Of a stretch of 29,807 nt of DNA, positions 7,657 through 8,705 are shown one piece after another. The number at the start of each line of letters is the position of its first letter. The first letter of the stretch is position 1. The notes under the pieces were generated by a model that was given only the letters and a program-made list of their open reading frames with translations, searched no databases and was not told where the DNA came from. The position numbers and the translations under genes were made by a program. Source of the stretch: Clarias gariepinus (Eukaryota); the NCBI RefSeq assembly GCF_024256425.1, contig NC_071110.1, positions 2,508,274 through 2,538,080 of the forward strand. The letters are read 5' to 3'.

Positions 7657-7791
7657 CGGTGGGCAGAGGAATATAAATCCTCTTTTCCAGCCTCCTCCTC
7701 AGGGCTTCATCTATGTCCCATGGAAAGTTTGTTGCAGCCAGAACCATCACCATTTTAGAGGGGTCATCGTTTTCTGACACCCTTCCTACAC
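7657..7791 (-). CDS. katnal1: katanin p60 A-like 1 (katnal1-like) exon: (G)[44 protein letters not shown]
   Basis: Near-perfect match to the conserved katanin AAA-domain segment [38 protein letters not shown]. The acceptor is tatccag|GT.. and the donor ACCG|gtaaaag. The exon starts in phase 1, which fits the preceding exon ending ...GATG. Confidence 0.7.
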
Positions 7792-7868
7792 CTGGATACG
7801 AAATTAGGTTATTCACCAAACTCTATCTAAAAAGCAACTAAATTTCTATCTGATGATCTGTTTCTCAC

Positions 7869-7995
7869 CATCCATCTGGACCAAAAGCTCTGACTTCACT
7901 CTCCGGCTTGCTTAGTGTTCATCTGATGTGCCACGTCTTCCACAAATGGAGTCAATTTCATCAATAAATATAGTGGTGGGGGCATAAAATCGAGC
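7869..7995 (-). CDS. katnal1: katnal1-like exon: [41 protein letters not shown], carrying an in-frame TAA
   Basis: Matches katanin ...[43 protein letters not shown]. The acceptor is tttaacag|GCTCGA and the donor GATG|gtgagaaa. The codon for the conserved Glu (DEH-E-ASRR) reads TAA; the plus strand has cttagtgttc at 7911-7920. Confidence 0.65.
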
Positions 7996-8169
7996 CTGTT
8001 AAACAGAACAGTGGTTGTCAAAAAGGTGTCAAGAACTCCCGGAAAACAAACGGGTACTTAAATTAATTAGGCTTAATCCTCTCTGTTTTAAACTTTTAAA
8101 TAACATTACAAAGAAGATTAAAGTGAATTTAAAAGACTCATGGACATTAACAGCGTATGACTTAATCAC

Positions 8170-8329
8170 CATTTCAAACTGTAGCCAAACAAGTTTTTTT
8201 AGACTCTCCCCGGTACTTCGAGGTGAGTGTGGAGGAGGAAATGTTAAAGAAAGTGGTACCGCACTCTGTAGCTACAGCTTTAGCCAGCATGGTCTTGCCG
8301 GTACCTGGAGGACCAACCATCAATACACC
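8170..8329 (-). CDS. katnal1: katnal1-like Walker-A exon: [43 protein letters not shown]..., with an apparent +1 frameshift in an A7 run
   Basis: Matches the katanin P-loop segment [54 protein letters not shown]. After GAG TCT the run AAAAAAA (plus-strand T7 at 8194-8200) breaks the frame. With 6 A the frame continues as [10 protein letters not shown] and then the donor ATG|gtgattaag. The 3' boundary depends on that interpretation. Confidence 0.55.
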
Positions 8330-8599
8330 CTGGCACACATAGAGAGAAACACACAGAACAACTAAAATTATGCCACTTCAATAGGATAGGGCAATTATTA
8401 TGTAGAAGACCTATATGGAAAAACCACACTAATCACCAATGGATTCAAATATATACAAGTTTTACTATATTGGTTGCCACAGCATTGATTAGTCTTGTTT
8501 AGTGCCACTGACTTATAAACATACTACTGCAACCTGATAACCTGATATTTCATGTCATGGCATGCAAAGTGTGGTATGTGTTTGTGCTAAAATATGAAC

Positions 8600-8705
8600 C
8601 TTCCATGGGTGCCGAATGCCCTTGAAAAAATCTGGCATCCACATTGGCAAAACCACAGCTTCCCGGAGCAGTTTCTTGGCATCCTCCAGGTCTGCGATAT
8701 CGTCC
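8600..8705 (-). CDS. katnal1: katnal1-like exon: (W)[35 protein letters not shown]
   Basis: Matches katanin ...[37 protein letters not shown]. The acceptor is cttcctgcag|G GAC GAT and the donor AAG|gttcat. Phase continuity with the next exon (GGT GTA TTG) holds. Confidence 0.7.

What the first reader, a model, noticed from the sequence alone, without database searches (positions are those of the whole stretch)
7657..8705. katnal1-like AAA-ATPase locus with two disabling lesions in its most conserved exons: likely unprocessed pseudogene or assembly error
Four consecutive exons on the minus strand match katanin p60 A-like 1 almost residue-for-residue ([34 protein letters not shown] / [42 protein letters not shown] / [42 protein letters not shown] / [38 protein letters not shown]). 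The Walker-A exon has an A7 run (plus-strand T7, 8194-8200) where 6 A would keep the frame and read ...[12 protein letters not shown], matching ESEKLVRLLFEM. Even then it carries E-to-K, R-to-W and L-to-Q changes at invariant positions. The next exon has TAA in place of the invariant Glu of DEHEASRR (7911-7920). Introns are retained, so this would be a duplicated and decaying unprocessed paralogue. The alternative is two sequence errors, of which the homopolymer one is plausible and the TAA less so. No upstream N-terminal exons (8712-10385) or 3' exons could be identified.
Basis: seen in the sequence. Interest (0 to 1): 0.6.

Follow-up and report, generated by a model that had tools for sequence, protein, structure and literature searches.

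The report
Truncated katnal1 pseudogene beside its parent
This is an ordinary, young, dead partial copy of the catfish katanin-like gene katnal1; it arose when a TRIM–katnal1 block duplicated in tandem, and the intact gene lies about 27 kb away on the same strand.

Summary
Four katnal1 exons lie on the minus strand (8705-8600, 8329-8170, 7995-7869, 7791-7657), all with AG/GT splice sites. An A7 run (8194-8200) shifts the frame, and TAA (7914-7912) replaces a conserved Glu.

The window is African catfish (Clarias gariepinus) DNA. Its right end (23366-29807) is 100% identical to the 3' flank of the intact 489-aa katnal1 gene of that species.

The fragment is coding exons 5-8 of 10. It matches the parent gene at 97.5-97.8% over 1.17 kb, introns included.

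It lies in a tandem segmental duplication of a TRIM–katnal1 block. Three deletions (about 4.3 kb, 856 bp and 1.09 kb) removed the presumed promoter region and exons 1-4 and 9-10.

Exons and introns have diverged equally (2.1% and 2.35%). With a bullhead catfish outgroup, the copy gained 6 replacement changes, 1 silent change and the frameshift. The parent gained 0 replacement and 4 silent changes (Fisher p = 0.015).

Sequence error cannot rescue it, because six of the ten coding exons are missing.

This is a new member of a well-known kind, and interest is low.

The parts
8600..8705 (-). Pseudo-exon e1, equal to parent coding exon 5 (DDIADLE...GIRHPWK). It carries the copy-specific R->H change (CGC->CAC at a CpG, position 8610).
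   Evidence: Translation; alignment to L005 14397-14502.
8170..8329 (-). Pseudo-exon e2, equal to parent coding exon 6 (Walker A, GPPGTGKT). The A7 run at 8194-8200 gives a +1 frameshift. The parent reads GAGAAA here; the copy reads AAAAAAA through two G->A changes plus one inserted A. It also carries E->K, R->W (CpG) and L->Q.
7869..7995 (-). Pseudo-exon e3, equal to parent coding exon 7 (Walker B, IFIDEID). GAA->TAA nonsense at 7914-7912.
7657..7791 (-). Pseudo-exon e4, equal to parent coding exon 8 (ATN sensor-1 motif and RRR arginine-finger motif, named from general knowledge of AAA ATPases). S->R change at 7781.
7606..8773 (-). Continuous block homologous to the parent gene (L005 14329-15493), covering exons plus three introns and flanks. 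There are 26 substitutions and 2 indel events in 1165 aligned sites.
   Evidence: blastn 97.5%; column-by-column list.
7556..7611 (-). Junction of the roughly 1.09-kb deletion (parent L005 15493-16579). It removed coding exons 9 and 10, the stop codon and about 230 bp beyond it. The gap is filled by a 15-17-bp tandem repeat of about 3 copies.
9148..9526 (-). Retained pieces of parental intron 4 (9148-9362) and intron 2 (9362-9526). They are joined at about 9362 by an 856-bp deletion that removed coding exons 3 and 4. The right breakpoint lies about 8 bp after exon 4.
9526..9664 (-). AT-rich junction of the roughly 4.3-kb deletion (parent L005 8735-13009). It removed the region upstream of the gene, coding exons 1-2 and most of intron 2.
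10288..10971 (-). Upstream end of the duplicated unit: the PRY/SPRY (B30.2) last exon of a TRIM25-like gene (ORF 10386-10997). It differs by 2.2% from its paralogue upstream of the real katnal1 (L005 7635-8323). The ORF is still open, with one amino-acid difference.
3444..7583 (-). Downstream part of the duplicated unit, colinear with the region 3' of the parent gene (L005 16579-20515). It aligns in blocks with 3.5-8.5% substitutions, interrupted by repeat insertions.
6329..6521 (-). Short repeat with an UnaL2-type LINE 3' tail, present here but absent from the corresponding point of the parent unit. It is either an insertion since the duplication or a loss from the parent unit.
   Evidence: RF00436, 58.6 bits, at 6333-6386.
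4758..5000 (-). Older relic of katnal1 exon 5 plus about 170 bp of intron 5. It is about 80% identical to 8430-8676, with TGG->TAG and a 5-bp deletion. It has its own counterpart downstream of the real gene (L005 18605-18846), so it predates the segmental duplication.

Best explanation
The locus is a non-functional, unprocessed (intron-containing) pseudogene fragment of katnal1 in the African catfish Clarias gariepinus.

Shown by the data:
- A block of roughly 25-30 kb, made of the last exon of a TRIM25-like gene, the whole katnal1 gene and its downstream sequence, is present twice in tandem.
- The upstream unit holds the intact gene.
- The downstream unit, which is in the window, has three deletions relative to the parent. 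They took out the region upstream of the gene together with coding exons 1-2, then exons 3-4, then exons 9-10.
- The remaining exons 5-8 carry six replacement changes including a stop codon, plus a +1 frameshift. Their divergence equals that of the introns.

Inferred:
- The duplication is a by-product of the expansion of the surrounding TRIM gene cluster.
- The divergence between the two copies is about 2.2%, or about 1.1% per lineage. That corresponds to a few million years, either since the duplication or since the last gene conversion.
- The fragment makes no katanin-like protein, because it lacks the presumed promoter region, the start codon, the MIT domain, the AAA lid and the C-terminus.
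For: Species and position:
- Window 23366-29807 is 100% identical to the 3' flank of Clarias gariepinus katnal1 (L005 26346-19905).
- The TRIM exon's best matches are all catfish proteins.

Parentage:
- Window 7606-8773 matches L005 14329-15493 at 97.5% including introns.
- The intron positions are those of real katnal1 in Clarias, Larimichthys and Characodon.
- The parent gene is intact: all 10 coding exons match P0312.

Duplication:
- Colinear blocks run from window 10971 to 2350 against L005 7635 to 22930.
- Both copies of the distal blocks lie inside the window itself.

Truncation:
- The deletions cover exactly the missing exons.
- tblastn and tblastx find no other katnal1 exon in the window apart from the old relic.

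Loss of constraint:
- Exon divergence is 11/527 and non-exon divergence is 15/638.
- With Ameiurus as outgroup, the copy has 6 replacement changes, 1 silent change and 1 insertion. The parent has 0 replacement and 4 silent changes.
- Fisher p = 0.015.
Against: - No read-level or independent-assembly check of the two lesions was possible. Exact look-ups of ORFs from this window found nothing.
- Divergence between the two units is uneven. It is 1.4-3% in the katnal1 and B30.2 blocks, 3.5-5% in several others and 8-13% in four. The history may therefore be an older duplication followed by gene conversion, or some blocks may be repeat copies rather than true counterparts.
- Transcription was not tested.
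Confidence: 0.93

Rival explanations
1. It is an intact, functional katnal1 gene or paralogue whose two lesions are sequencing or assembly errors.
For: - The frameshift sits in a homopolymer (A7), a classic error site.
- A real katnal1 exon in another public assembly (Larimichthys crocea, L003) carries just such a homopolymer frameshift, C4 instead of C3.
Against: - Six of the ten coding exons and the upstream region are absent, through three defined deletions relative to the parent.
- There are five further missense changes at residues that are identical in the parent, in other fishes and in human.
- Differences from the parent are mostly substitutions (26 against 2 indel events), at the same density in exons and introns. 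That is not an indel-dominated error profile.
- Neighbouring TRIM exons are open.
- An intact katnal1 lies 26.6 kb away.
Confidence: 0.01
2. The duplication itself is an assembly artefact, for example two haplotypes or a mis-joined contig placed in tandem, so the 'copy' is an allele of the real gene.
For: No independent assembly or read depth could be examined for 2350-10971.
Against: - The two units differ by 2-13% in substitutions, by three kilobase-scale deletions and by repeat insertions. That is far beyond what I would expect between two haplotypes, though no heterozygosity figure was measured.
- The allele would have to be a null that lacks six exons.
- Both copies of the distal blocks lie in one continuous 29.8-kb window.
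Confidence: 0.03
3. The fragment is not translated into katanin but has been co-opted. It might be transcribed by read-through from the TRIM gene that ends 1.7 kb upstream on the same strand, and act as a regulatory RNA (a source of antisense or small RNAs, or a decoy for katnal1 regulators) or as extra 3' exons of a TRIM transcript.
For: - It has the same strand and lies close to an apparently intact TRIM last exon.
- All eight splice sites are still canonical.
Against: - Exons evolve at the intron rate, and the replacement-to-silent ratio is 6:1. No constraint is therefore detectable.
- The B30.2 ORF ends in a stop codon before the fragment.
- There are no expression data.
Confidence: 0.03

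Closest known systems
Clarias gariepinus katnal1 (protein P0312, 489 aa; gene at L005 10001-16346, record CM044214.1 of GCA_024256435.1)
   Same: Exons 5-8 with their introns are 97.5-97.8% identical. The intron positions, strand, chromosome region and upstream TRIM neighbour are the same.
   Different: The window copy lacks the upstream region, exons 1-4 and exons 9-10. It has a frameshift, a stop codon and five missense changes. It shows no purifying selection.
Unprocessed (duplicated) pseudogenes arising from tandem segmental duplication
   Same: It retains introns and lies next to its parent. It is partial in extent, carries disabling lesions and has a neutral substitution pattern. This class definition is established knowledge.
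   Different: Nothing of substance differs. The only local colour is that the duplication unit is part of an expanding TRIM25-like (finTRIM-type) cluster, and that an older exon-5 relic was already present downstream before the duplication.
Human KATNAL1 AAA domain (PDB 6b5c)
   Same: After frame repair, the 175 residues align end to end with E = 3.9e-107. Walker A and Walker B are preserved.
   Different: This is only the core of the nucleotide-binding subdomain. The lid subdomain, C-terminal helix, MIT domain and linker are absent, and the reading frame is broken.

Membership tests
Functional katanin p60 / KATNAL1 AAA ATPase gene | Uninterrupted reading frame across the AAA domain | tested here: not met
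   There is a +1 frameshift at 8194-8200 and TAA at 7914-7912.
Functional katanin p60 / KATNAL1 AAA ATPase gene | N-terminal MIT domain and linker (coding exons 1-4 in the catfish gene) | tested here: not met
   tblastn finds none in the window. The parent intervals that hold exons 1-4 are deleted.
Functional katanin p60 / KATNAL1 AAA ATPase gene | AAA lid (AAA_lid_3) and Vps4_C-type C-terminal helix (coding exons 9-10) | tested here: not met
   tblastn finds no hit. A 1.09-kb deletion spans exons 9-10 and the stop codon.
Functional katanin p60 / KATNAL1 AAA ATPase gene | Walker A and Walker B motifs | tested here: met
   GPPGTGKT and IFIDEID are present in the translation. They are necessary but not sufficient.
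Functional katanin p60 / KATNAL1 AAA ATPase gene | Purifying selection on the coding sequence | tested here: not met
   The copy lineage has 6 replacement changes to 1 silent change. The parent has 0 to 4. Exon divergence equals intron divergence.
Unprocessed (duplicated) pseudogene | Introns retained at the parental positions | tested here: met
   Three introns lie at the same codon positions as in Clarias, Larimichthys and Characodon katnal1. The intron sequence is about 97.6% identical to the parent's (15 substitutions in 638 non-exon sites).
Unprocessed (duplicated) pseudogene | An intact parent gene in the same genome | tested here: met
   P0312 has all 10 coding exons open in L005, whose 3' flank overlaps the window at 100% identity.
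Unprocessed (duplicated) pseudogene | Flanking non-genic DNA duplicated together with the gene, which distinguishes segmental duplication from retroposition | tested here: met
   Colinear blocks run from the upstream TRIM B30.2 exon to several kb downstream of the gene.
Unprocessed (duplicated) pseudogene | Disabling lesions and lack of expression as protein | tested here: inconclusive
   The lesions and the truncation are shown. Expression could not be tested with these tools.
Processed (retroposed) pseudogene | Intronless, with a poly(A) tail and target-site duplications | tested here: not met
   Introns are present, and the copy is colinear with the parent's genomic DNA.

The most novel reading that the evidence does not exclude
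The truncated copy, which still has eight canonical splice sites and lies 1.7 kb downstream of an apparently intact TRIM gene on the same strand, might be transcribed by read-through. It could then serve as a regulatory RNA for the neighbouring katnal1, a gene important for male fertility in mammals, for example as a small-RNA source or decoy. It could also serve as alternative 3' exons of a TRIM transcript.
Probability: 0.03. Interest if true: 0.4.

Novelty: new member of a known kind. Interest (0 to 1): 0.1.

Why it matters
It matters little beyond annotation hygiene. The four exons score extremely well against KATNAL1, so automatic gene predictors could call a spurious second katanin-like gene here or merge the exons into a TRIM model. 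Recording the locus as a truncated pseudogene prevents that.

It is also a clean worked example of how the expansion of an immune-type TRIM cluster drags a neighbouring housekeeping gene along and then discards it. In a few percent of sequence divergence, the copy acquired three deletions, a repeat insertion, a frameshift and a nonsense mutation.

Tried and rejected
1. Exact-sequence look-ups of ORFs from the window (the frameshifted Walker-A ORF, the exon-4 ORF, TRIM and transposon ORFs) found nothing in the public collection. They were meant to find an independent assembly or read-derived contig of this locus, so the two lesions could not be checked against other data.

2. P0001 (Perca fluviatilis) could not be located on a contig.

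3. Comparison with percomorph katnal1 (Larimichthys, Characodon and an unidentified cDNA) was uninformative for dating, because silent sites are saturated (pS 0.77-0.88). It also over-counted copy-specific replacements. V65I, G134 and A135V turned out to be catfish-lineage features already present in the parent.

4. I considered that the fragment had been captured by a transposon, or that the two katnal1 pieces in the window (8705-7657 and 5000-4758) were independent insertions of different age. I rejected this when the older relic proved to have its own counterpart downstream of the real gene. It was simply copied along with the rest.

5. I considered that this is the original katnal1 locus decaying in place. 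I rejected this because the intact gene with the same TRIM neighbour lies immediately upstream.

6. A literature search for 'katnal1' with 'pseudogene' returned nothing relevant.

Full report
**1. The observation**

Read on the minus strand, the window contains four open segments bounded by AG...GT:
- 8705-8600
- 8329-8170
- 7995-7869
- 7791-7657

Joined together, with one A removed from the A7 run at 8200-8194, they translate to 175 residues. These align end to end with the AAA domain of human KATNAL1 (PDB 6b5c, E = 3.9e-107) and slightly less well with KATNA1.

tblastn with a fish katnal1 protein, and with the human N-terminus typed from my memory (a lead only), found no other katnal1 exon in the 29.8 kb. 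The one exception is a badly decayed second copy of the first exon at 4936-5004.

**2. Where the window comes from**

The surrounding ORFs are:
- TRIM exons: RING/B-box at 22522-23157, and PRY/SPRY at 10386-10997 and 14288-14740, all on the minus strand;
- transposon debris.

The RING/B-box exon finds its best relatives (about 82% identity) only in catfishes.

A search with a longer katnal1 query returned catfish katnal1 proteins. In Ameiurus melas, the katnal1 gene sits on the same chromosome record as the best TRIM hits.

Fetching the catfish loci and comparing them with the window settled the origin. Window 23366-29807 is 100% identical over 6442 bp to the 3' flank of the Clarias gariepinus katnal1 gene (L005 26346-19905; record CM044214.1 of GCA_024256435.1).

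The window's minus strand is the gene's coding strand. The intact gene therefore lies just beyond the right end of the window, about 26.6 kb upstream of the fragment.

**3. The parent gene**

tblastn of P0312 (489 aa) on L005 gives ten coding exons, all open and matching:

| Exon | L005 coordinates |
|---|---|
| E1 | 10001-10171 |
| E2 | about 11441-11602 |
| E3 | 13310-13480 |
| E4 | 13896-14021 |
| E5 | 14397-14502 |
| E6 | 14771-14929 |
| E7 | 15104-15230 |
| E8 | 15308-15442 |
| E9 | about 15674-15802 |
| E10 | about 16137-16346 |

The window's four exons are E5-E8. The same intron positions occur in Larimichthys crocea and Characodon lateralis katnal1.

**4. The duplication and the deletions**

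Window 7606-8773 aligns to L005 14329-15493 at 97.5%, introns included.

Around it there is a colinear series of blocks, from window 10971 (the TRIM B30.2 exon, matching L005 7635-8323) down to window 2350 (matching L005 22930). The whole unit of TRIM last exon, katnal1 and downstream DNA is therefore present twice in tandem. The two copies of the most distal blocks both lie inside the window.

Relative to the parent unit, the window unit lacks three intervals:
- **L005 8735-13009 (about 4.3 kb):** the upstream region, E1, E2 and most of intron 2. The junction is at window 9526-9664.
- **L005 13173-14029 (856 bp):** E3 and E4. It ends about 8 bp after E4, with a clean junction at about 9362.
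- **L005 15493-16579 (about 1.09 kb):** E9, E10, the stop codon and about 230 bp beyond. The junction is at 7583-7606 and is filled by a 15-17-bp tandem repeat.

A short repeat with an UnaL2-type LINE tail (6329-6521; Rfam RF00436 at 6333-6386) is present in the window unit only.

**5. The selective regime**

Over the 1165 aligned sites there are 26 substitutions and two indel events:

| Region | Substitutions | Sites | Divergence |
|---|---|---|---|
| Exons | 11 | 527 | 2.1% |
| Introns and flanks | 15 | 638 | 2.35% |

I polarised the exon differences with Ameiurus melas katnal1 as outgroup:
- **Copy lineage:** R32H (CpG), E79K, R83W (CpG), L85Q, E116stop and S134R, plus one third-position change and the inserted A.
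- **Parent lineage:** four changes, all silent.

That is 6:1 against 0:4, with Fisher p = 0.015.

The A7 run itself was created by two G->A changes in the parental GAGAAA plus one inserted base.

The copy has therefore drifted freely while the parent stayed under purifying selection. Divergence per lineage is about 1.1%. I infer from this an age of a few million years, without a calibrated rate.

Divergence is uneven along the unit:
- 1.4-3% in the katnal1 and B30.2 blocks;
- 3.5-5% in several other blocks;
- 8-13% in four blocks.

An older duplication followed by gene conversion, or mis-paired repeat copies, cannot be excluded.

**6. The second relic**

Window 4758-5000 is about 80% identical to 8430-8676, which is part of E5 plus about 170 bp of intron 5. 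It carries TGG->TAG and a 5-bp deletion.

Its much greater decay puzzled me at first. One search then showed a counterpart downstream of the real gene (L005 18605-18846; also seen by tblastn). It is an older partial duplication that was already in the unit when the unit was copied.

**7. The assembly-error alternative**

Homopolymer frameshifts do occur in public assemblies of real katnal1. The Larimichthys locus has C4 for C3 in exon 8, which truncates its annotated protein.

Here, however, six of the ten coding exons are missing and the differences from the parent are mainly substitutions. They are as dense in introns as in exons. The adjacent TRIM exons are open, and an intact gene is next door.

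I could not check reads or a second assembly, because the exact look-ups failed. The single extra A therefore remains unverified, but nothing depends on it.

**8. Verdict**

This is an ordinary, young, unprocessed pseudogene fragment, produced as collateral of tandem duplication in a TRIM cluster. Novelty is limited to a new instance of a well-known kind, and interest is low.

Noticed in passing
window 4758-5000 (-); counterpart at L005 18605-18846: An older relic of katnal1 exon 5 plus about 170 bp of intron 5, about 80% identical to the younger copy, with a stop codon and a 5-bp deletion. It is present downstream of both the real gene and the pseudogene, so it predates the segmental duplication. 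No such relic was seen in the 10 kb downstream of Ameiurus melas katnal1.
   Followed up: yes
window 22522-23157, 14288-14740, 10386-10997 (all -): Exons of TRIM25-like (finTRIM-type) genes: one RING/B-box exon and two PRY/SPRY exons. All are open and closest to catfish TRIMs. The window is part of a TRIM cluster that flanks katnal1 in Clarias and Ameiurus. The B30.2 exon at 10386-10997 differs by one amino acid from its paralogue upstream of the real katnal1.
   Followed up: partly
L003 about 13689-13700 (Larimichthys crocea CM011692.1, GCA_003845795.1): The real katnal1 exon 8 of this public assembly has CCCC where other fishes have CCC (AACTTTCCCCTGGGAC). The resulting frameshift makes the annotated protein (P0124 / TMS06385.1) end in a nonsense tail. 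It is most likely a homopolymer assembly error.
   Followed up: partly
P0001 (Perca fluviatilis KAF1382770.1): This 287-aa 'hypothetical protein' starts MNCR..., which is translated from the last bases of the intron before exon 5. The same bases read VNCR in Larimichthys and SCR in the window. It looks like a truncated annotation of the ordinary katnal1 gene, not a short paralogue.
   Followed up: partly
window 6329-6521 (-), also 25402-25595; L005 11758-11933: A short interspersed repeat of about 190 bp that carries an UnaL2 LINE 3' tail (Rfam RF00436). Copies are 90-93% identical, and one lies inside intron 2 of the real katnal1.
   Followed up: partly
window 23354-23817, 23371-23436 and 26960-27023: A 415-bp sequence that matches its own reverse complement at 88%, next to a perfect (TA)33 microsatellite. 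A second perfect (TA)32 lies at 26960-27023.
   Followed up: no
window 26445-26672 (+), 28477-28932 (-), 6794-7129 (+), 19019-19387 (-): Transposon debris. One ORF weakly matches the Sleeping Beauty transposase HTH domain. A second Tc1-like ORF has no Pfam hit, and I judged it Tc1-like by eye only. There are also two reverse-transcriptase-type fragments (weak RVT_1 and ALKBH8_N matches).
   Followed up: partly
window 16170-16738 against L005 6284-6852: Another block that is 98% identical between the window's TRIM region and the TRIM gene upstream of the real katnal1. In the window it is separated from the B30.2 block by about 5 kb, which includes the second, more divergent B30.2 exon. In the parent unit the separation is 0.8 kb. 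The duplication history of the TRIM part is therefore more complex than a single event.
   Followed up: no
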